Virus record (IMG/VR): IMGVR_UViG_2541047779_000001 | Length of the DNA stretch: 36,485 nucleotides | Source: a virus | Taxonomy: Duplodnaviria > Heunggongvirae > Uroviricota > Caudoviricetes | Strand: one strand, 5' to 3' | Program-made: the position numbers and the translations under genes | Notes under the pieces: generated by a model | What the model saw: only the letters and a program-made list of their open reading frames with translations | The model's database searches: none | Told to the model about the DNA's origin: nothing | Shown here: one piece after another, positions 1-12,602 of the stretch | Layout: every line of letters starts with the position of its first letter | How positions within the stretch are numbered: the stretch's first letter is position 1

Positions 1-1053
1 TTACGGGGTAATGCCAACCGCTGCCGCCACTTTGTCGCCACTTGGCAATGTTGCCAGAGGATTGAAACGGAGCGCCGTTTCCAGATGATCCGGTGCCAGA
101 TGTGCGTAACGCATAGTCATTTTTATATCGTGGTGTCCGAGAATTTTTTGTAAGGCCAGGATGTTTCCACCCGACATCATGAAGTGCGCCGCAAAAGTAT
201 GGCGCAGAACGTGTGTCAGTTGACCGCGAGGGAGCACGATAGACGTTTTTTCCATCACGGATAAAAATTGAAAATAGCAGTCTGTGAAGAAATTGAACCC
301 ATCAAGCGCCATGATCTCTTCGTAAAGCTCTTTACTGATAGGGATGCTTCTGTTTTTCTTCCCCTTCGTTCTTACAAAGGTAATTCGGTATTTGGTCACC
401 TGTGAGCGGGTAAGATTTACGGCTTCTCGCCAGCGTGCGCCTGTGCTTAAGCATATCTTGACTACCAGAGCCAGAATTGGGTCCTGACGTTTGCAATCAG
501 CCAGTAATTCAACAATCTGCTCATGGGTAAGCCATGCCATCTCTTTTTCTGCGATGGTGAATTTTCGCATGTTCTCCAGTGGGTTCGGATACGACCATTC
601 GCCCAGACGGGATAGTTCGCTAAAAACACTACTTAGATAGCTTTGCTCCAGGTTAATGGTGACCGGGCTTGCTCCTTTCTTCCATTTCTCGCTGAAGTAG
701 ATCTCGCCTGTCAGGCGTTTATCTCGATAGTGGGCAAACATTTTAGAGGTGAGATCGGTTGCAAGAGGATTGCCTAGGGCGTCAACCATCAGCAGCAATT
801 TGTCATAGACATGATGTCCAGCAGTCAGAGATTTACCATGTAGTTTGAACCATAGCTCAACCACGTCTTTCAGGGTTCGACGATCCACTGATTCGCCCAG
901 CCAGGGCTTTGATTCGGTTTCTTCCATCGTGTGACGCTCAAAAGCCAGAGCTTCGCCTTTGGTGGCGAATTGTTTACGCACACGACGCCCACTTCGTCCG
1001 GCGGGGTAACATTCGCAAAGCCATTTCCCTGTGGTGAGTTTTCGTACTGCCAT
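1..1053 (-). CDS. int: Tyrosine integrase (P2/186 Int family)
   Basis: C-terminal catalytic motif HVLRHTFAAH...GHHDIKMTMRYAHL in the ORF translation. ORF track starts at 1209, but a start at the ATG at 1051..1053 (MAVRKLTTGKW...) gives a more typical length; that choice is a guess. Confidence 0.85.
   Translation of the reverse strand: MAVRKLTTGKWLCECYPAGRSGRRVRKQFATKGEALAFERHTMEETESKPWLGESVDRRTLKDVVELWFKLHGKSLTAGHHVYDKLLLMVDALGNPLATDLTSKMFAHYRDKRLTGEIYFSEKWKKGASPVTINLEQSYLSSVFSELSRLGEWSYPNPLENMRKFTIAEKEMAWLTHEQIVELLADCKRQDPILALVVKICLSTGARWREAVNLTRSQVTKYRITFVRTKGKKNRSIPISKELYEEIMALDGFNFFTDCYFQFLSVMEKTSIVLPRGQLTHVLRHTFAAHFMMSGGNILALQKILGHHDIKMTMRYAHLAPDHLETALRFNPLATLPSGDKVAAAVGITP
20..42. repeat. 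Putative attL core (direct repeat partner of 33634..33656)
   Basis: cgctgccgccaCtttgtcgccaC here versus cgctgccgccaTtttgtcgccaT at 33634..33656; 21 of 23 identical, same orientation, bracketing the prophage. Confidence 0.5.
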
Positions 1054-1241
1054 AAAAAATGCCCTCCAGTAGAGAGCATTTTTACTGTATGTATAACCAG
1101 TGTCAATGTATGAAATCCTACGACCATACATCTCACTGAAGCCATAATGAAGTTGGCTATTCTTTTTGCTATGTGAGCATGTAACTTTTGCGGTTAACCT
1201 GCGGCTCATTTTTATTTTAGACGCAGATATAAAAGCAAAAG

Positions 1242-1433
1242 TTATCGTGAGTTTTTAGTACAGATTTTTTTGGATTTACTAATAGTTCCATCATTGCAAA
1301 CGAATTTGCCATCTGGGGTACAGTGAGAAACACCTCCCTTTTTCCCTGAGCAGGGATAATTTCTAGCATAGGTAGTTAGTGGGTTTAATAACAAAGAACA
1401 TGACAAAACCACAAAAAATACCTTACCAAGCAT
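1242..1433 (-). CDS. Small hypothetical secreted cysteine-rich protein (63 aa)
   Basis: Strong RBS on the minus strand (gggaggaaact then ATG), N-terminal hydrophobic signal-like segment [23 protein letters not shown], six Cys in the mature part, AT-rich context between int and cI. Confidence 0.45.
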
Positions 1434-1448: not shown

Positions 1449-2105
1449 CTATTTAACATACTTGACTGTTAAACTTATAATTTTACCAATTATTTCAATG
1501 TCTTCTATCTTGCATTCGAAGGCTCTGTTTCCACCCTCGACGAAGATTCTTCCACCGGGTAAACGAGTAATGTCACGGATCGTTATTTCGCCATCAATAC
1601 TTATTACCCATTTAGCATCACGTATATCATCAAATTCTTTATCACAAATAAATTCAGAATTGTTATCTGTGATGACAAAAGGTTTTTTAAACGTAGAGGG
1701 TAGAAATCCCTTATCAAAAATATAAAAACCGTCTTTCTGCAATGCTCCATCAGACAATAAATATTTTTCTACTTCTATAGTATTTGTATTTGCTGATGCT
1801 TGCTTTGAACCATGCCCTGTTGTTAGCCAATTAAGCGAGGTGCCCGTTTCAAGGGCGCACTGGATTACCCAATCTGCTGGAAAAATATCACGCATATAGC
1901 GCGTTGCCATGGTGCTCTTAGAAACACCTAAATGATCACAGAGAGCCTGACGGGTACCGAACCCATATGCTTCAACTAAACGTTCTATGGCTTTCTTACC
2001 GCCGCTATTGAAATCCACAAGTCCTCCAAAGAAATCCAAAATTCGTTGACAGATTCCAAAAGCGATCTTAAAGTTGAACCAGAAGTGTTCTTTTGGAGCC
2101 TTCAC
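1449..2105 (-). CDS. cI: CI-type immunity repressor (186 CI-like, HTH N-domain)
   Basis: N-terminal segment IERLVEAYGF...STMATRYMR...CALETGTSLNWLTTG resembles my recollection of the 186 CI HTH domain. The listed ORF start is a GTG and probably too far upstream; true start uncertain. Confidence 0.75.
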   Translation of the reverse strand: MKAPKEHFWFNFKIAFGICQRILDFFGGLVDFNSGGKKAIERLVEAYGFGTRQALCDHLGVSKSTMATRYMRDIFPADWVIQCALETGTSLNWLTTGHGSKQASANTNTIEVEKYLLSDGALQKDGFYIFDKGFLPSTFKKPFVITDNNSEFICDKEFDDIRDAKWVISIDGEITIRDITRLPGGRIFVEGGNRAFECKIEDIEIIGKIISLTVKYVK

Positions 2106-3982: not shown

Positions 3983-4836
3983 GCACCATCCTGAAATGGG
4001 CGGGAAATAAAACCGCCATTATGTCCAAACTGAAAAAACACCTTCCTGCTGGCCCGCGACTGGTTGAACCTTTCGCGGGTTCCTGTGCAGTGATGATGGA
4101 GACGGATTACCCCAGCTATCTTGTTGCGGATATTAATCCTGATTTAATCAACCTCTATAAAAAGGTTGCTGCTGATTGTGAGGCGTTTATATCTCGTGCC
4201 AGAGCTTTATTTGAGGAAGCAAACAGGGAGGTGACTTATTACAACATAAGGCAGGAGTTTAATTACTCCACTGAAATTACTGATTTTATGAAAGCGGTAT
4301 ATTTTCTGTATCTCAATCGTCATGGTTACCGTGGGTTATGTCGCTATAACAAGAGCGGGTATTTCAACATTCCCTACGGTAATTATAAAAATCCGTATTT
4401 CCCTGAAAAAGAAATTCGCGCATTTGCAGAGAAAGCCCAGCGGGCAACGTTTATCTGCGCCAGCTTTGATGAAACGCTGGCGATGTTGAAGGTGGGGGAT
4501 GTGGTGTATTGCGATCCGCCTTATGACGGTACGTTTTCCTGCTATCACACTGATGGCTTCACTGAAGATGACCAGTATCACCTGGCATCTGTTCTTGAAC
4601 ATCGATCATCTGAAGGTCATCCGGTCATTGTTTCTAACAGTGACACATCCCTGATTCGTTCGCTGTATCGCAATTTCACTCACCACTACATCAAGGCAAA
4701 ACGCAGCATCGGCGTGTCGGCTGGCGAGAGTAAATCTGCAACAGAAATCATTGCTGTTTCCGGGGCGCGCTGCTGGGTGGGATTTGATCCTTCGCGTGGC
4801 GTGGATAGTTCTGCCATGTACGGAGTGCGTGCATGA
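3979..4836 (+). CDS. DNA N6-adenine methyltransferase (Dam-like)
   Basis: DPPY catalytic motif (VYCDPPYDG) and Dam-like N-terminus [11 protein letters not shown]...[18 protein letters not shown] before ATG at 3979; stop overlaps A start (ATGA). Confidence 0.85.
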
Positions 4837-7247
4837 GCCATGATGATATGAACAACTGCAGCGGCTTTAACGAGGTCGCCGCAGCATTCTCATGGAACAG
4901 CCCGAAAAAGGCCATTAACCCTTATCTGGACCTGGCGGAAGTTGCGCCGGTTTCTGCGCTTTCAAACCTGATCACTCTGTACGCTGTCGATAATGAGCAG
5001 GAACAACTGCGTCGCGAGGCACTAAGTGATCAGGTCTGGGAGCGTTATTTCTTTAATGAATCCCGTGATCCTGTCCAACGCGAAATGGAGCAGGATAAGC
5101 TCATTAGCCGGGCAAAGCTGGCGCATGAGCAGCAGCGTTTTAATCCAGATATGGTCATTCTGGCGGACGTCAATGCCCAGCCTTCCCATATCAGCAAGCC
5201 GCTGATGCAACGTATCGAATACTTCAGCAGCCTGGGCAGGCCAAAGGCTTATTCCCGCTATTTGCGTGAGACGATTAAGCCATGTCTGGAACGACTGGAG
5301 CATGTACGCGACTGTCAGCTATCCACTTCTTTTCGCTTTATGGCAAGCCATGAAGGGCTGGACGGCCTGCTGATCCTGCCTGAAATGAGTCAGGATCAGG
5401 TGAAACGCTTGTCTACTCTTGTCGCTGCGCATATGAGCATGTGTCTTGATGCAGCTTGTGGCGATTTGTATGCCACCGATGACGTTAAGCCAGAAGAAAT
5501 CCGCAAGACATGGGAAAGGGTGGCGGCGGAAACCCTGCGTCTGGATGTCATTCCTCCTGCGTTTGAGCAACTCCGCCGGAAAAGAAACCGCCGTAAACCC
5601 GTGCCCTATGAACTCATTCCGGGTTCGCTGGCGCGTATGTTGTGCGCCGACTGGTGGTATCGGAAATTATGGAAGATGCGTTGCGAATGGCGGGAAGAGC
5701 AGTTGCGCGCTGTCTGCCTGGTTAGCAAAAAAGCATCTCCTTATGTCAGCTATGAAGCCGTGATGCATAAACGTGAGCAGCGCCGTAAGTCGCTGGAGTT
5801 TTTTCGTTCTCATGAACTGGTGAACGAAGACGGCGACACGCTGGACATGGAGGATGTGGTAAACGCCAGCAGCAGCAACCCTGCGCATCGCCGCAATGAG
5901 ATGATGGCCTGTGTTAAAGGCCTGGAGCTTATCGCGGAAATGCGCGGTGACTGCGCCGTTTTCTACACCATCACCTGTCCGTCACGTTTCCATTCCACGC
6001 TAAATAACGGCAGGCCCAACCCGACCTGGACAAATGCGACGGTAAGACAAAGCAGTGATTATCTGGTCGGCATGTTTGCTGCATTTCGTAAGGCGATGCA
6101 CAAAGCCGGATTGCGCTGGTATGGCGTGCGGGTGGCTGAGCCGCATCATGACGGTACAGTTCACTGGCACCTGTTGTGTTTTATGCGCAAAAAAGATCGC
6201 CGCGCCATTACTGCTTTATTGCGTAAGTTTGCCATTCGTGAAGACCGCGAGGAGCTGGGGAATAACACGGGACCACGATTTAAGTCTGAGTTGATTAACC
6301 CGCGCAAAGGAACGCCGACAAGCTACATCGCGAAATATATCAGCAAGAACATTGACGGGCGTGGTCTGGCTGGCGAGATCAGCAAGGAAACGGGTAAATC
6401 TCTGCGTGATAACGCTGAATACGTGAATGCCTGGGCGTCTTTGCATCGTGTTCAGCAATTCCGCTTCTTTGGCATTCCGGGGCGTCAGGCTTACCGTGAA
6501 CTGCGATTGCTGGCTGGTCAGGCGGCAAGGCAACAGGGGGACAAAAAAGCAGGTGCGCCGGTACTGGATAACCCGCGCCTTGATGCAATCCTAGCTGCTG
6601 CTGATGCTGGTTGTTTTGCCACTTACATCATGAAGCAGGGCGGCGTACTGGTTCCCCGCAAATATCACCTCATCAGAACTGCTTATGAAATTAACGAAGA
6701 GCCGACCGCCTATGGCGATCACGGCATTCGTATTTATGGCATCTGGTCACCCATTGCAGAGGGCAAGATCTGCACTCATGCGGTGAAGTGGAAAATGGTT
6801 CGTAAGGCCGTTGACGTTCAGGAGGCGGCAGCCGACCAGGGCGCTTGCGCCCCTTGGACTCGTGGCAATAACTGTCCCCTTGCGGAAAATTTGAACCAAC
6901 AGGAGAAAGATAAATCAGCTGATGGGGACACCAGAACGGACATTACCCGCATGGATGACAAGGAGTTGCACGATTACCTGCACAGTATGAGCAAAAAAGA
7001 GCGCCGGGAACTGGCAGCAAGGTTACGCCTGGTTAAGCCGAAACGGCGTAAAGACTACAAACAGCGAATTACAGATCATCAGCGACAGCAGCTCGTCTAT
7101 GAACTGAAGTCCAGAGGATTTGATGGCAGCGAGAAAGAGGTCGATTTACTCCTTCGCGGTGGCAGTATTCCGTCAGGAGCAGGCCTGCGTATCTTCTATC
7201 GGAACCAGCGTTTGCGGGAAGATGATAAGTGGCGGAATCTGTATTAA
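4833..7247 (+). CDS. A: Replication initiation endonuclease (P2 gpA family)
   Basis: 804-aa protein in the position and with the size of the P2/186 replication protein; contains the HWH-type motif [10 protein letters not shown]. Confidence 0.85.
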
Positions 7248-7316
7248 TTACGCGGGTTAACAATTCGTGCTCTTAATAATACCAGGCATATCAGGCTGAT
7301 GAACGTAAAAAAACGT

Positions 7317-7343
7317 TTTACATCAGTAAGATTATTATATACT
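7317..7343 (+). promoter_or_regulatory. Putative sigma70 promoter of the SOS operon
   Basis: tttaca (7317..7322) and tatact (7338..7343), overlapping the LexA box. Confidence 0.4.
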
Positions 7344-7359
7344 GTAAATATAAACAGTG
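7340..7359. promoter_or_regulatory. LexA (SOS) box
   Basis: TACTGTAAATATAAACAGTG: CTGT-N8-ACAG with AT-rich spacer, about 40 bp upstream of the ATG at 7400. Confidence 0.65.
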
Positions 7360-7399
7360 GTTATGTATACAGTATTGCTTTGGTGTCATAGGAGGAAAG

Positions 7400-7588
7400 A
7401 TGCAGGACTATTTTTTGGAGTCTTTGAAGCTCCAGCGCATTGATTTTTTTCTTAAGCTTGTAGCGGCTAGTGAGTGTAGTGATGAAGAGAAGGGGCTGGC
7501 CCTGCAGTGGGTTTCTGAACTGACAGATGAACTCATGGCAAAAATCAGAACCCACGAATACAACCGCTCAATGGATGTCATCAGCTGA
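7400..7588 (+). CDS. Small SOS-operon protein, possible Tum-like antirepressor
   Basis: AGGAGG RBS before ATG at 7400; sits downstream of the LexA box and upstream of the DinI-like gene, as in the 186 tum operon. Assignment is positional only. Confidence 0.45.
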   Translation: MQDYFLESLKLQRIDFFLKLVAASECSDEEKGLALQWVSELTDELMAKIRTHEYNRSMDVIS

Positions 7589-7598
7589 GGTGACTTTT

Positions 7599-7832
7599 AT
7601 GCGCATTGAAATAATGATCGATAAAGAGCAAAAGATTAGCCAGTCTACACTGGACGCCCTTGAATCCGAGCTTTACCGCAATCTGCGCCCCCTGTATCCC
7701 AAAACGGTAATTCGTATCCGCAAAGGTAGCTCTAACGGTGTGGAACTGACCGGACTGCAACTGGACGAAGAAAGAAAACAAGTGATGAAAATTATGCAGA
7801 AGGTGTGGGAAGACGACAGCTGGCTGCATTAA
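7599..7832 (+). CDS. DinI-like protein
   Basis: Translation MRIEIMIDKEQKISQSTLDALESELYRNLRPLYP...MQKVWEDDSWLH has DinI-family length and pattern; GAGG RBS before ATG at 7599. Confidence 0.7.
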   Translation: MRIEIMIDKEQKISQSTLDALESELYRNLRPLYPKTVIRIRKGSSNGVELTGLQLDEERKQVMKIMQKVWEDDSWLH

Positions 7833-7966
7833 GAAACGTTGCTGGCGTCTGAACTTGTTTCTGGCGTCAGCAAGGTTGAACAACGAGCCCTTGCGAGGCG
7901 TTAGCTCTGTAGTGCATGTCTATGCCGCATGAGATCGCATGATCGTTTGAGGATCGTTTTTGCTAA

Positions 7967-7991
7967 GGCCCGCCAGAACTGGCGGGCTTTT
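7967..7991 (+). terminator. Rho-independent terminator after the SOS operon
   Basis: Stem gcccgcc / ggcgggc with a 6-nt loop, followed by tttt. Confidence 0.55.
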
Positions 7992-8036
7992 GCGTAGATC
8001 ATGCAGGTGCATGAAAACCACTACATAAAGCGGGCA

Positions 8037-8055
8037 GGCGTGGCGGGGATACGAG
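8037..8055. other. cos-like cohesive end sequence
   Basis: GGCGTGGCGGGGATACGAG resembles the P2/186 19-nt cohesive ends as I recall them (GGCGAGGCGGGGAAAGCAC / GGCGTGGCGGGGAAAGCAT). Confidence 0.45.
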
Positions 8056-8246
8056 CGCGCGCTGAAAAGGTTTAGCTAAATTTTTGTCGATAGGTGGTTT
8101 TAGTTGTTATACAAAAGTGTCACTGGTTTTGTTTTGAGCATTTGTGGTGCTAAAAATATTTTTTTTGGTTCAAAATTACCTTAAAAAGGTTTTTTTGGTG
8201 TATGATTGTTTGAAAAGTGGTTCGGTTTTGCCATAAGGGTGGTTAG

Positions 8247-9329
8247 ATGATAAACGTTACAAACGAAATGCTCATTGATGTTGTCAGTGATGCTCTTACC
8301 GGGAAGAGGGAAAGTCTCCTCATGCGGTTGCGGATTATGGCAAAAAAACTAAAAAAAGAATCTCCTGAATTAGCGGGTAAATTAGAAGATTTACTTATTA
8401 ATACGGGTGGCGCAATTGCAGTCGAAAGGGCTAATCCAGTTGTTCCTAAAATAACACCTGTTGATGCGGATACAAGACAAAAGCTGCTAGTTGAAACATA
8501 TCCTGTGGTCATTGATGTTGAACCTGTTTGGCCAACAAAAACTGATGTTCAACTGAATCGATTTGTGGCTGAGTGGGAAATGAAAGAACGCCTTTATAAA
8601 GAAGGGTTGCATCCCTCCAAATCTCTTCTTATGGGAGGACCACCCGGTGTGGGGAAGACTTTGGCTGCAAAGTGGCTCGCTTTTAAACTCGATATGCCAT
8701 TGTTAACATTAGATCTCGCAAGTGTAATGAGTAGCTACTTGGGGAAAACGGGTAATAATATTAAGGCAGTCCTCAATTATGCTTCGTCATTCCCTTGTGT
8801 ACTGCTTCTTGACGAATTTGATGCGATTGCTAAAAAAAGGGATGATGCAACAGATGTTGGAGAACTAAAAAGATTAGTTACAGTATTATTGCAAGCAATT
8901 GATGAATGGCCAAATACGTCTGTTCTTATAGCAGCAACTAACCATGCGGAGCTGCTTGATCCTGCTGCATGGAGAAGATTCGATCGAGTTATTGATTTTG
9001 AATATCCAACACAAGACCTAATGAGAAGATATCTCTGTTCTAAAAATATTGGAGATAGCTTATCGTACTATATTGCTACAAAACTCGAAAAAGTTTCATA
9101 TGCAGTTCTTGAGAGAGCTATAAATCAAGCTAAAAGAAATGCCATTATAGAAGATATTCCTTTAAGTTCAGCTTTAATTGATGAGTTGTTAGATGGCGTG
9201 TCACTTGATGATGTTATAAAAAACATGTCAAACAACAATGTATCACAAAGAAAAATCGCTTTAGATTTGGGGATTTCAAGGTCACAAGTACGTAAGGTTT
9301 TGACGGTTGAGGATGAAGACAATGAATGA
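8247..9329 (+). CDS. AAA+ ATPase with C-terminal HTH (IetA-like)
   Basis: Walker A GPPGVGKT, Walker B VLLLDEFD, C-terminal HTH-like tail (QRKIALDLGISRSQVRKVL). AT-rich gene with GGGTGG RBS. Confidence 0.85.
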   Translation: MINVTNEMLIDVVSDALTGKRESLLMRLRIMAKKLKKESPELAGKLEDLLINTGGAIAVERANPVVPKITPVDADTRQKLLVETYPVVIDVEPVWPTKTDVQLNRFVAEWEMKERLYKEGLHPSKSLLMGGPPGVGKTLAAKWLAFKLDMPLLTLDLASVMSSYLGKTGNNIKAVLNYASSFPCVLLLDEFDAIAKKRDDATDVGELKRLVTVLLQAIDEWPNTSVLIAATNHAELLDPAAWRRFDRVIDFEYPTQDLMRRYLCSKNIGDSLSYYIATKLEKVSYAVLERAINQAKRNAIIEDIPLSSALIDELLDGVSLDDVIKNMSNNNVSQRKIALDLGISRSQVRKVLTVEDEDNE

Positions 9330-11514
9330 TAAAAATATGCTTCTTGGCTATGGTGAAACACTAACTAACCCTGTTAAACTTAACAGAGGTGGAGGTGAAA
9401 AGAATAAACCTTACTCTTATTCAGAAAATAAACCAGTGATATCTGCTCAACTGGAAGAGTTGATTGAGGAAATTAATACCCTTCCATTGTTAGCAATGCC
9501 TGAAGGTAAGGCTGTAGCAAAATTTGTTTTGCATCCGGCATTCTTAGCAAAAAGTTATTTTCCAGTAAGTCTTTTTGAGCGATTTTCCCTAGAAAGCATA
9601 GGCAGTAAGGCTGTAAAAGTAAAACCTAGAAAAGATATTAAAAAAAGAGGGCGAAAAGAGGAATACACTACAGCGTGTATTTATGTTTCTGGCAAAAAAG
9701 AAAGTTTTCAATCATTCTTAGACTCTGTAAATCAAGATACCCTAACGAAAGGGCAGCAAAATGATTTTGTCACCTTAGAAAATATTTCAATACTGGAAGT
9801 TTCAGATAAAGTAAAAACGATTAATAGCAATGAAGTTATGAGTATTGAGGTCGCCTTACATACTCCTGATACAAGTTCCTCTATTGTCGATAGTTTTGAA
9901 GTTTTTGCTTCGCAAAATGGTGCTGTTATAGATAAGGCAAGAAGTATAAAAGTTAAGGGGCTAACCTTTATGCCTATTAAGGCTAGTAAAGATGTAGCTT
10001 TAAAAGTTGCAGAGTTTTCATTTCTCAGGACTTTGAGAGAACTTCCTGAATTAAGGCTAAGTGAGCCTGTTATATCACGTTCTGTGATTCAAACATCTAA
10101 CCTTAGTTTACCATCTGAAGGAGCGGTAAACCCACACATAAAGGTTGCCATATTCGATGGTGGATTGGGGATCGATGATTTCAATCCTTGGGTAACAGAG
10201 TACACTTTCAACGGTAATGCTAGTACTAATGCAAAACTTCTTTCTCATGGACAGGATGTCACCTCTACTGTGTTATTTGGTGTTCTTGGCTCTGAAACGG
10301 AAAAATTAAGTGTTCCTTATTGTAATATTGACCATTATCGTGTACTGGATTCCAATGTTAATAACTCAGATGTCGATCTTTTTGACGTTCTGATCCGTAT
10401 TAAAAGTGTATTAGAACAAAAAAAATATGATTATATCAATCTGAGCTTAGGACCTAGATTACCTGTTGATGACGATGACGTGCATGTGTGGACCTCAACT
10501 CTTGAGGAGATACTTGCATCAGGAGAAACACTTTGTACTGTCGCGGTTGGAAATGATGGTCAGCTGCCTGCCAAGTTAAATCGAATTCAACCACCTGCTG
10601 ATTTAGTTAATGGTCTGTCAGTAGGTGCAGCAACCTCTTTATCTGATAGTTGGGAAAGATGTTCTTACAGTTGTATTGGTCCTGGACGAAGCCCTGGCTT
10701 TGTGAAGCCTGATGGAGTTGCATTTGGAGGACATTCTGATGAGCCATTCCAGGTATACAGCCCTATGGTTAATGGTCTTGCCCGCACTGCGGGGACTAGC
10801 TTTTCTGCTCCATTAGTCCTGAGGCAAGCAATCGCGTTAAGTGCTTCTCTAAATTACAACATTACACCACTTACGGCTAAAGCTCTGCTTATACATCATG
10901 CGGAGAGCAATAATATCAATCGTGCTGAAGTTGGTTGGGGACGATTTCCTCATGATCTTAGTGAAGTAATATTTTGTGATGATGATGAAGTTAAAGTTAT
11001 ATATCAAGGTACTTTAAAACCATCACAACACATGCGAGCACCTGTTCCGTTTCCAGATGTACCTATGCGTGGATGTGTAAATTTAAGAGCGACATTCTGT
11101 TTTTCCAGTCCTGTAGATGCGGAACATCCTTTGAATTATACAAGAAGCGGTCTAGAAGTAACCATGAGAAAAGGTGTTTCAGATAGTTCCGGGTTAACGT
11201 TTCCTCTTTTTAATCTAAAAAATGTTTATGCAGATGAAAATGAGCAACGTGTTGATGCACATAAATGGGAGACTACGTTAAGAAGTGAACACAAATTTAA
11301 ACCGAATGAGCTGACAAACCCATGCTTTGATATTATCTACTATGGTAGAGACTGTGGTATGCCTATTGATGTTGACGAGTTAGAAGAACTACCATATGTT
11401 CTTGTTGTGACTTTATCTGCTGAAGAAATGCCGGATTTATATAACCTAATTAGGCAGAAATATCAAACCTTACAGCCTATCCAAGTTCAACAGCAAATTA
11501 TGTTACGTACTTAA
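9307..11514 (+). CDS. S8 subtilisin-like serine peptidase (IetS-like)
   Basis: Catalytic triad motifs in subtilase order: VAIFDGGLG (Asp), HGQDVTSTV (His), GTSFSAPLV (Ser). About 270 aa N-terminal region of unrecognised function. Start may be the ATG at 9322; overlaps the ATPase stop. Confidence 0.85.
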   Translation: MRMKTMNDKNMLLGYGETLTNPVKLNRGGGEKNKPYSYSENKPVISAQLEELIEEINTLPLLAMPEGKAVAKFVLHPAFLAKSYFPVSLFERFSLESIGSKAVKVKPRKDIKKRGRKEEYTTACIYVSGKKESFQSFLDSVNQDTLTKGQQNDFVTLENISILEVSDKVKTINSNEVMSIEVALHTPDTSSSIVDSFEVFASQNGAVIDKARSIKVKGLTFMPIKASKDVALKVAEFSFLRTLRELPELRLSEPVISRSVIQTSNLSLPSEGAVNPHIKVAIFDGGLGIDDFNPWVTEYTFNGNASTNAKLLSHGQDVTSTVLFGVLGSETEKLSVPYCNIDHYRVLDSNVNNSDVDLFDVLIRIKSVLEQKKYDYINLSLGPRLPVDDDDVHVWTSTLEEILASGETLCTVAVGNDGQLPAKLNRIQPPADLVNGLSVGAATSLSDSWERCSYSCIGPGRSPGFVKPDGVAFGGHSDEPFQVYSPMVNGLARTAGTSFSAPLVLRQAIALSASLNYNITPLTAKALLIHHAESNNINRAEVGWGRFPHDLSEVIFCDDDEVKVIYQGTLKPSQHMRAPVPFPDVPMRGCVNLRATFCFSSPVDAEHPLNYTRSGLEVTMRKGVSDSSGLTFPLFNLKNVYADENEQRVDAHKWETTLRSEHKFKPNELTNPCFDIIYYGRDCGMPIDVDELEELPYVLVVTLSAEEMPDLYNLIRQKYQTLQPIQVQQQIMLRT

Positions 11515-11552: not shown

Positions 11553-12602
11553 CTATGTTGATTGTGGGTCATCGTTTATTAAGTTATATTTTTCAAAATG
11601 GATAATATTAATTCCTAACCATTCATTAAATTCCTGTAATCGTTTTTGTAAAGGCATTAATTCATTTCGAACAAACACTCGACTCGCCTTCTCTACATCT
11701 CCAAATCCTCCAACATTACTTGGCATAATCCCCATCATTTGCGGCGGCACACGGTGTGCCGCCATCATGTCGTCCCGGCTCACGTTCTTGATATTCAGAA
11801 ACTCATCCTTCGCCGCGACTTCTGACAACGGGATGATCTGAAGCCCGTCCTTTTTGCCGTTAGGCGAGTACATAAACAGGTTGCGGAAGTTGCCAGGGCC
11901 TTTGGCGCTTTTCATCGCATTGCGGAGGTTGTTCACATCCTCCTGGTTCTGCGCGGCATCGGTCATGTACATGATGAAGCCTGCATGACTGCCGTTAATA
12001 TAATACTTCCGGCGGAACAGCGTGGCGGACTCGTTGAGCAGGGCTGACGGAATGGCAGAAAGATAACCTGGCAGGCCGTAGATCTCCTGGTTGATGTCAG
12101 GTTCCATCAGATGAAAAATGCTGCCTTTCGTGAACTGATACGGATGGGTTGTCATACCGTATTGCACAAACCAGTAGGTATCCAGGTCTAACCCGCGTCG
12201 GGTGTATTTTGCCAGCGCAGGCTCAAGGGCTATAACTTCACCGAATCGGTTCGTGCGTTTCTCCAGGTAGGCGTTACCAAATACCAGATAGTCCTGCACA
12301 AAACGCGAAAAAGCCTGTTGGCTGAGCAGCGGATGAGGGATATAGGTACTGGTCAGAATGTTGCACTTTACTGCAATCGGGGAACTGTGATGCACGGCAG
12401 CGCGGAAGGTGCGCGCCAGTCCGTCAAAGCTGACGGGTGGCTCATACCAACGGTCCATCTGAACGCATTCCACATAGTCCAGCAGTTCTCGGCGGTCCAG
12501 AACTGGAACGGGATCGCCGAAGCTGAATGCTTCGGCTGTAGTCTGGCTTTTATGCTGAATCTGGGTCGTCGCCGCAGCGCGCTTCTTCTTACTCTTTCCC
12601 AT
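11553..12602 (-). CDS. Q: Portal protein (P2 gpQ)
   Basis: 349-aa protein, first gene of the leftward Q-P operon, overlapping the P stop. Confidence 0.85.
   Translation of the reverse strand: MGKSKKKRAAATTQIQHKSQTTAEAFSFGDPVPVLDRRELLDYVECVQMDRWYEPPVSFDGLARTFRAAVHHSSPIAVKCNILTSTYIPHPLLSQQAFSRFVQDYLVFGNAYLEKRTNRFGEVIALEPALAKYTRRGLDLDTYWFVQYGMTTHPYQFTKGSIFHLMEPDINQEIYGLPGYLSAIPSALLNESATLFRRKYYINGSHAGFIMYMTDAAQNQEDVNNLRNAMKSAKGPGNFRNLFMYSPNGKKDGLQIIPLSEVAAKDEFLNIKNVSRDDMMAAHRVPPQMMGIMPSNVGGFGDVEKASRVFVRNELMPLQKRLQEFNEWLGINIIHFEKYNLINDDPQST

What the first reader, a model, noticed from the sequence alone, without database searches (positions are those of the whole stretch)
7317..7832. LexA-boxed SOS operon encoding a small protein and a DinI-like protein (186 tum-like induction module)
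Seen directly: a CTGT-N8-ACAG box (TACTGTAAATATAAACAGTG) overlaps a plausible -10, followed by two RBS-preceded small genes, the second with DinI-family features. Established knowledge: coliphage 186 is SOS-induced through a LexA-repressed promoter driving the Tum antirepressor, and its operon includes a DinI-like ORF. Inference: this prophage is SOS-inducible by an antirepressor rather than by RecA-mediated repressor cleavage, and the 62-aa protein is the candidate antirepressor.
Basis: partly seen in the sequence, partly recalled or inferred. Interest (0 to 1): 0.5.

Follow-up and report, generated by a model that had tools for sequence, protein, structure and literature searches.

The report
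LexA-controlled tumA/tumB prophage induction operon
This is the already-described SOS switch of a P2/186-like prophage: DNA damage removes LexA from a promoter, a 62-residue antirepressor (split-Tum "TumA") is made with a DinI-like partner, and the antirepressor is expected to inactivate the phage CI repressor. It is ordinary and very common in enterobacteria.

Summary
A strong LexA box (7340-7359, unique in the window) overlaps the -10 of a TTTACA-17-TACTGT promoter. Two genes with ribosome-binding sites follow: a 62-aa ORF (7400-7588) and a 77-aa DinI-family ORF (7599-7832).

The operon is 97-98% identical to the tum region of Salmonella phage Fels-2 and E. coli HS prophage DuoHS. The 62-aa protein matches ECHS_RS04495 at 61 of 62 residues. 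That gene was named tum and deleted in a 2025 paper, where both the tum deletion and lexA(Ind-) abolished mitomycin C induction. Profile comparison aligns ORF62 to residues 3-44 of phage 186 Tum. The DinI-like ORF aligns to Tum's C-terminal half. So this is the known "split Tum" (PSP3 tumA/tumB) arrangement. The repressor in the window is 186-type CI with no S24 autocleavage domain.

- A second, overlapping LexA box (7355-7374) makes a colicin-type double SOS operator. It is conserved in this phage group and absent from 186 and PSP3.
- A separate LexA box sits inside a strong promoter directly upstream of int (1078-1106, minus strand).

About 1,125 of 5,426 complete E. coli genomes carry the module. 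Verdict: already known, low interest.

The parts
7317..7322 (+). -35 hexamer TTTACA of the tum (p95-equivalent) promoter
   Evidence: Sequence. The same position and spacing are conserved upstream of tumA homologues in most of the loci inspected and correspond to the annotated 186 p95 -35.
7340..7345 (+). -10 hexamer TACTGT, 17 bp after the -35
   Evidence: Identical hexamer to the annotated -10 of 186 p95.
7340..7359 (.). LexA box 1, TACTGTAAATATAAACAGTG (strong)
   Evidence: Unique in the window at 3 mismatches or fewer, 0 of 100 shuffles. HI-type score 4.45. Identical in Fels-2 and DuoHS.
7355..7374 (.). LexA box 2, CAGTGGTTATGTATACAGTA (weaker), overlapping box 1 with a 15-bp offset: a double SOS operator
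   Evidence: HI-type score 7.9, third best in the window. The TGG...ACAG core is kept while the spacer varies in Fels-2, DuoHS, SopEPhi, ST13-OXA48phi12.1, ST437-OXA245phi4.1 and MLG42. Same geometry and about 90% identity to the colicin E1/cloacin double operator.
7390..7395 (+). Ribosome-binding site AGGAGG of tumA
   Evidence: Sequence.
7400..7588 (+). tumA: 62-aa antirepressor candidate (split-Tum N-terminal half), predicted two-helix hairpin
   Evidence: phrog_698 E 3.6e-38. hhalign to 186 Tum residues 3-44. 61/62 identical to DuoHS tum ECHS_RS04495. 98% identical to Fels-2 STM2728. AF2 pLDDT 88.
7587..7591 (+). Ribosome-binding site GAGGT of tumB, overlapping the tumA stop codon
   Evidence: Sequence.
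7599..7832 (+). tumB: 77-aa DinI-family protein (split-Tum C-terminal half)
   Evidence: Pfam DinI 6.6e-23. 41% identical to 186 Tum residues 71-145. PDB DinI 1ghh E 2.7e-6. Below the NCBIfam cut-off for chromosomal DinI.
7965..7992 (+). Probable intrinsic terminator of the operon: 11-bp G+C-rich stem, GAAC loop, UUUU
   Evidence: RNA fold of 7826-8010, z = -3.7; sequence. Positional analogue of 186 t95a. Inferred, not tested.
1449..2105 (-). cI: 186-type immunity repressor, the presumed target of TumA (the true start is probably internal, about residue 30 of this ORF)
   Evidence: Pfam Phage_CI_repr 3e-31 and Phage_CI_C 7e-28, no S24 domain. 86% identical to DuoHS CI.

Best explanation
This is the SOS-induction operon (tumA-tumB) of a Fels-2/186-like member of the Peduoviridae. 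In a lysogen, LexA sits on a double operator (7340-7374) covering the -10 and the start region of a sigma-70 promoter, keeping the operon off. DNA damage activates RecA and LexA cleaves itself, so the promoter fires. TumA is a 62-residue helical hairpin equivalent to the N-terminal half of phage 186 Tum. It binds the 186-type CI repressor and stops it binding its operators. The early lytic promoter (apl, cII ... A) then turns on and the prophage enters lytic growth. TumB, the co-translated DinI-like protein equivalent to Tum's C-terminal half, acts on RecA filaments and modulates the strength or timing of the SOS signal. It is not the antirepressor. Shown here by sequence: the boxes, the promoter, both genes, the homologies and the CI type. 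Shown by others in near-identical phages: SOS and LexA dependence, and the requirement for tumA. Inferred: direct TumA-CI binding, the role of TumB, two LexA dimers on the double operator, and the terminator.
For: - LexA box statistics.
- The promoter architecture equals the annotated 186 p95.
- A strong LexA box lies upstream of the tumA homologue in 13 of 13 loci from at least 8 phage genera.
- ORF62 aligns to the Tum N-terminal half (hhalign 94.9%, E 4e-8). 186 Tum residues 1-70 hit ORF62's own family phrog_698 at 5.9e-6, and ORF62 hits the PSP3 TumA family phrog_1993 and phrog_8554.
- TumB is 41% identical to the Tum C-terminal half and matches Pfam DinI.
- The PSP3 GenBank record annotates tumA as 'similar to 5' end 186 tum; UV induction of prophage' and tumB as similar to dinI and the 3' end of tum.
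- PMC3121763 states that Fels-2 and PSP3 have tum split by a stop codon and that the upstream PSP3 gene carries the antirepressor activity.
- The DNA is 97-98% identical to Fels-2 and DuoHS across promoter and genes.
- In DuoHS, deleting ECHS_RS04495 (61/62 identical) or introducing lexA(Ind-) blocks mitomycin C induction (PMC12055606).
- Fels-2 STM2727 (predicted operon STM2726-2728) is induced 5.5- to 14.8-fold by the mutagen MX and listed with the LexA regulon (PMC2225428).
- CI is 186-type with no S24 domain and 86% identical to DuoHS CI.
Against: - No experiment exists on this exact sequence.
- Direct TumA-CI binding has been shown biochemically only for full-length 186 Tum (the 1998 Shearwin study, as summarised in PMC3121763). 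The PSP3 TumA activity is a personal communication cited second-hand.
- The DuoHS deletion, as far as I could read, was not reported as complemented, so an effect through tumB translation is not formally excluded.
- ORF62 and Tum are too diverged for pairwise BLASTP (no hit). The homology rests on profiles.
- The promoter's -10 is weak by consensus.
- My LexA scoring matrix was built from sites recalled from memory.
Confidence: 0.9

Rival explanations
1. The operon is an SOS-modulating accessory module (moron). The DinI-like protein is the functional product, damping RecA activity for the benefit of the host. The 62-aa ORF is a leader or an unrelated small protein, and induction of the prophage runs through another route.
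For: TumB is a genuine DinI-family protein. DinI homologues occur in LexA-regulated prophage operons elsewhere. Databases give ORF62 no function: Pfam, NCBIfam and PADLOC return nothing.
Against: ORF62 is homologous to the antirepressor half of Tum. Deleting its 98%-identical orthologue abolishes induction in DuoHS. The family also occurs without a DinI partner in ESSI2-type and Yersinia phages, still behind a LexA box. That argues that ORF62 is the core function.
Confidence: 0.05
2. TumA and TumB act only together, as a non-covalent equivalent of full-length Tum. In this case the 62-aa protein alone is not a sufficient antirepressor.
For: The two halves are fused in 186. The genes are adjacent here, with the tumB ribosome-binding site overlapping the tumA stop codon, which suggests coupled production.
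Against: A second-hand report says the PSP3 upstream gene alone encodes the antirepressor activity. The TumA family occurs without a DinI gene in several phages. In 186, the truncated DinI-like forms are annotated as modulators, not antirepressors.
Confidence: 0.05

Closest known systems
tum (ECHS_RS04495) / DinI-like ECHS_RS04500 of E. coli HS prophage DuoHS, and STM2728 / STM2726.1 of Salmonella phage Fels-2
   Same: Same promoter, identical LexA box 1, and the same double operator. TumA is 98% identical, tumB nearly identical, at the same position after gene A. CI is 86% identical to DuoHS CI.
   Different: A few substitutions fall in the spacer of box 2. Downstream cargo differs: homology breaks exactly at the tumB stop codon. 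This window carries IetA/IetS there instead of the Fels-2/DuoHS genes.
PSP3 tumA / tumB
   Same: Split arrangement, with a small antirepressor gene followed by a DinI-like gene behind a LexA-boxed promoter after gene A.
   Different: TumA is only about 14% identical (different PHROG, phrog_1993). PSP3 has a single LexA box, not a double one.
Coliphage 186 Tum (146 aa) and its p95 SOS operon
   Same: A LexA-repressed promoter after gene A, with the -10 TACTGT inside the LexA box. The N-terminal half is homologous to TumA and the C-terminal half to TumB. It acts on a 186-type CI.
   Different: In 186 the two halves are one polypeptide, with internal starts giving truncated DinI-like forms. It has a single LexA box. 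orf97 follows in the same operon.
Double overlapping SOS boxes of colicin/cloacin promoters (ColE1-type plasmids)
   Same: Two LexA boxes offset by 15 bp, with about 90% identity over about 42 bp: CTGTA..ATA.A.C(A/C)AGTGGTTAT.T.TACAGTATT. PMC2994835 reports that they bind two LexA dimers and repress very tightly.
   Different: In colicin promoters the boxes lie downstream of the -10; here box 1 overlaps the -10. LexA occupancy of box 2 is untested in the phage.
E. coli chromosomal DinI
   Same: TumB matches the DinI Pfam family over its full length and the solved DinI structure 1ghh by sequence.
   Different: It scores 42.7 bits against the 111-bit cut-off of the NCBIfam DinI equivalog. It is a phage DinI-like paralogue, not DinI proper.

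Membership tests
Tum-type LexA-controlled antirepressor, split form (TumA) | Gene sits behind a promoter overlapped by a LexA box | tested here: met
   Box at 7340-7359 overlapping the -10. Boxes are present in 13 of 13 homologous loci.
Tum-type LexA-controlled antirepressor, split form (TumA) | Located just downstream of replication gene A in a P2/186-like genome | tested here: met
   gpA at 4833-7247 (Pfam Phage_GPA 9e-128). tumA starts 153 bp after it. Same order in 186, PSP3, Fels-2 and DuoHS.
Tum-type LexA-controlled antirepressor, split form (TumA) | Sequence homology to the N-terminal half of 186 Tum / PSP3 TumA | tested here: met
   hhalign probability 94.9%, E 4.3e-8, residues 3-44 in both. 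Reciprocal PHROG hits. Pairwise BLASTP alone finds nothing.
Tum-type LexA-controlled antirepressor, split form (TumA) | Cognate repressor is 186-type CI without an autocleavage (S24) domain | tested here: met
   Phage_CI_repr + Phage_CI_C only. 32% identical to 186 CI.
Tum-type LexA-controlled antirepressor, split form (TumA) | Protein binds CI and prevents operator binding; required for SOS induction | not testable with these tools
   Genetic requirement shown for the 61/62-identical DuoHS gene. Biochemistry is known only for 186 Tum.
DinI-like family (TumB) | Full-length match to the DinI domain above the curated threshold | tested here: met
   PF06183, 81.3 bits against a cut-off of 24.2. 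PDB 1ghh E 2.7e-6.
DinI-like family (TumB) | Equivalog of chromosomal DinI | tested here: not met
   NF007893 scores 42.7 bits against a cut-off of 111. It is a phage paralogue.
DinI-like family (TumB) | Binds RecA filaments and modulates co-protease activity | not testable with these tools
   Inferred from family membership and from the 186 record's note that truncated Tum modulates SOS induction.
Colicin-type double SOS operator | Two LexA boxes overlapping with a fixed offset | tested here: met
   Boxes at 7340 and 7355, offset 15 bp. Same offset in colicin E1 and cloacin promoters. Conserved in 7 of the 8 close relatives examined.
Colicin-type double SOS operator | Occupied by two LexA dimers, giving tight and delayed expression | not testable with these tools
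   Reported for colicin operators (PMC2994835). Untested for this promoter.

The most novel reading that the evidence does not exclude
This phage group may have wired LexA into induction more tightly than the 186 paradigm, at two nodes. First, the tum promoter carries a colicin-type double LexA operator that 186, PSP3, ESSI2-type and Yersinia relatives lack. That should give very low basal expression and late, thresholded induction. Second, int has its own strong promoter with a LexA box in the spacer, so excision would be directly SOS-gated, independent of the cI-int transcript. I found neither feature described in the papers I could search. That search was narrow, and the key Fels-2 paper (Bunny et al. 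2002) was not readable.
Probability: 0.45. Interest if true: 0.3.

Novelty: already known. Interest (0 to 1): 0.12.

Why it matters
It confirms that this prophage is inducible by DNA damage through a LexA-controlled antirepressor rather than by repressor cleavage. That is useful for annotating it: databases label the 62-aa gene "hypothetical" almost everywhere, although it is the induction trigger and is present in about a fifth of complete E. coli genomes. It adds no new biology. The only slightly fresh points are the colicin-like double LexA operator and the LexA-boxed int promoter. Both are refinements of a known circuit.

Tried and rejected
- Pairwise BLASTP of ORF62 against 186 Tum found no alignment. 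The homology appeared only with profiles.
- Pfam, NCBIfam and PADLOC gave nothing for ORF62.
- A PDB sequence search with a family profile gave nothing.
- Foldseek of the AF2 model against the PDB returned only generic two-helix hairpins, with no hit at E <= 0.001. It was uninformative.
- An exhaustive HMMER search of 1.84 billion representatives found only 66 clusters. Nearly all are short standalone proteins, and no fused Tum-length forms were reached from this query.
- The generic promoter scan found no promoter at 7200-8300 because the -10 is weak by consensus. I relied instead on the annotated 186 p95 architecture.
- An Rfam scan of 7200-8300 gave only a chance microRNA hit.
- The second CTGT-N8-ACAG match at 9371-9386 lies inside the ietS coding sequence and does not rank among the good LexA sites. 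I treat it as chance.
- Bunny et al. 2002 (PMC151935), the primary Fels-2 paper, is not held. Its content is cited only through PMC3121763.
- A literature search for a LexA-regulated int promoter in P2-like phages found nothing.

Full report
**What the window is.** The window is a P2/186-like (Peduoviridae, Fels-2-like) prophage.
- The left end reads int (1-1053, minus strand), a small ORF, and cI (1449-2105, minus strand; Pfam Phage_CI_repr + Phage_CI_C).
- On the plus strand follow an apl/cox-position ORF, cII (Phage_CP76), fil, DUF5347, DUF2732, a TraR/DksA zinc finger, Dam methylase and replication gene A at 4833-7247.
- The finding lies in the 153-bp gap after gene A and the two small genes that follow.

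**Checking the observation.**
- The box TACTGTAAATATAAACAGTG is at 7340-7359.
- It is the only site in the window within three mismatches of the 20-bp LexA consensus. None of 100 dinucleotide-preserving shuffles produced one.
- The bare CTGT-N8-ACAG core is not significant by itself: 2 found against 0.6 expected.
- I built a heterology-index matrix from 20 E. coli SOS boxes recalled from memory, so it is a rough tool. With it the site scores 4.45, comparable to recA. The best unrelated site in the window scores 13.5.
- The promoter is TTTACA (7317-7322), 17 bp, TACTGT (7340-7345). In the phage 186 record the SOS promoter p95 is annotated as TTCACA, 18 bp, TACTGT, with the LexA site starting at the -10. 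The architecture is the same.
- The generic scanner missed it because TACTGT is a poor match to TATAAT.
- The two genes are 7400-7588 (62 aa, AGGAGG four bases upstream) and 7599-7832 (77 aa, GAGGT overlapping the first gene's stop codon).
- The second is a full-length DinI-family protein: Pfam 6.6e-23 and PDB 1ghh 2.7e-6. It falls below the equivalog cut-off for chromosomal DinI.

**What it is.**
- The 651-bp region is 97-98% identical to Salmonella phage Fels-2, several E. coli phages and many Klebsiella prophages. It occurs in 1,125 of 5,426 complete E. coli genomes.
- In 186, Tum is a single 146-aa protein whose C-terminal half is DinI-like. Internal starts give truncated DinI-like forms annotated as modulators of SOS induction.
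- The window's DinI-like protein is 41% identical to Tum residues 71-145.
- The 62-aa protein gives no BLASTP alignment to Tum, but profiles link them. A 29-sequence family alignment aligns to Tum residues 3-44 with hhalign probability 94.9%, E 4.3e-8.
- The first 70 residues of Tum hit the 62-aa protein's own family phrog_698 at 5.9e-6. The 62-aa protein in turn hits phrog_8554 and phrog_1993, the family of PSP3 TumA.
- The PSP3 record annotates exactly this pair. tumA is 'similar to 5' end 186 tum; UV induction of prophage'. tumB is 'similar to dinI and 3' end of 186 tum'.
- So the window carries the known split-Tum operon.

**Experimental support from near-identical phages.**
- The E. coli HS prophage DuoHS has the same operon. 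Its 62-aa gene ECHS_RS04495 matches the window's at 61 of 62 residues.
- PMC12055606 names that locus tag tum and deletes it in frame. The tum deletion and lexA(Ind-) strains both fail to lyse or form virions after mitomycin C.
- The window's CI is 86% identical to DuoHS CI, so the result should transfer.
- In Salmonella carrying Fels-2, STM2727 (predicted operon STM2726-2728) rose 5.5- to 14.8-fold with the mutagen MX and was listed with the LexA regulon (PMC2225428).

**Mechanism.**
1. LexA represses the promoter.
2. RecA activation after DNA damage leads to LexA self-cleavage.
3. TumA and TumB are made.
4. TumA binds CI and prevents operator binding, as reported for 186 Tum.
5. The lytic promoter fires.
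6. TumB, as a DinI-like protein, probably tunes RecA filament activity.
- TumA is predicted as a two-helix hairpin: helices 2-23 and 28-61, pLDDT 88.
- The steps shown directly by sequence are the boxes, promoter, genes, homologies and CI type. Direct TumA-CI binding, TumB's role and the terminator (7965-7992) are inferred.

- A second LexA box, CAGTGGTTATGTATACAGTA (7355-7374, score 7.9), overlaps the first with a 15-bp offset.
- Across 13 loci from diverse Peduoviridae, every tumA homologue has a strong LexA box.
- The double box is present in the window and in six of the seven other phages of this phrog_698 plus DinI group: Fels-2, DuoHS, SopEPhi, ST13-OXA48phi12.1, ST437-OXA245phi4.1 and MLG42. 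Spacer bases vary while core bases are kept. SEN8, of the same group, scores only one box.
- 186, PSP3, the ESSI2-type phages and a Yersinia phage have one box.
- The 42-bp operator is about 90% identical to the double SOS operator upstream of colicin E1 and cloacin on more than a thousand Col-type plasmids. Colicin operators are reported to bind two LexA dimers and repress very tightly (PMC2994835).
- This suggests tight, late induction of tum, but it is untested.

**Comparison and novelty.** The module is a member of the Tum/TumA-TumB family on every feature that sequence can test. The biochemical feature could not be tested here, though it has genetic support in a 98%-identical orthologue. 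It is already known. The practical value is annotation, since the 62-aa gene is labelled 'hypothetical protein' in nearly all records.

**Seen in passing.**
- The best LexA-like site in the whole window (score 4.05) is at 1083-1102. It lies in the spacer of a near-consensus promoter, TTGACA-17-AAAAAT, on the minus strand (1106-1078). A GGAGG and the int start codon at 1053 follow directly.
- The box core is conserved in DuoHS, 4LV2017, KP12 and vB_EcoM-813R9, even where the upstream gene differs.
- Homology to Fels-2 and DuoHS ends exactly at the tumB stop codon. The cargo that follows is an IetA/IetS defence pair.

Noticed in passing
window 1078-1106 (minus strand); LexA-like box 1083-1102; int start codon at 1053: A near-consensus promoter, TTGACA-17-AAAAAT, lies directly upstream of int with a strong LexA-like box (TACTGTATGTATAACCAGTG, the best score in the window) in its spacer. 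The CTGG..ACAG core is conserved in DuoHS, 4LV2017, KP12 and vB_EcoM-813R9, even where the upstream gene differs. This suggests an SOS-gated int promoter independent of the cI transcript. My narrow literature search found no description of it.
   Followed up: partly
window 8247-11514 (+): An AAA ATPase (IetA, PADLOC E 7e-84) and a subtilase (IetS, E 3e-48) form an IetAS anti-phage defence pair. They sit in the variable cargo slot between tumB and the portal gene (11553-12602, minus strand). Homology to Fels-2 and DuoHS breaks exactly at the tumB stop codon at 7830-7832. Whether SOS transcripts read through the 7965-7992 terminator into it is unknown.
   Followed up: partly
window 1242-1433 (-): A 63-aa ORF between cI and int has a signal-peptide-like N-terminus and several cysteines. 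It is also present in DuoHS as a hypothetical protein. It has no family match and looks like a moron inserted into the cI-int operon.
   Followed up: no
window 7833-7910 (+): The roughly 80 nt after tumB include a G-U-rich hairpin at 7839-7873 and the motif GGTTGAACAAC...GCGAGGC. The segment is shared at roughly 70% identity with the segment after PSP3 tumB but is absent from Fels-2, DuoHS and 186. There is no Rfam match and its meaning is unknown.
   Followed up: partly
loci L003, L004, L017 (Yersinia vB_YenM_06.16-2, Escherichia ESSI2_ev015, Cronobacter ESSI-2): TumA-family genes stand behind a single LexA box with no DinI-like gene annotated downstream. The antirepressor half therefore seems to occur without the DinI half. 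I did not check for unannotated DinI ORFs there.
   Followed up: partly
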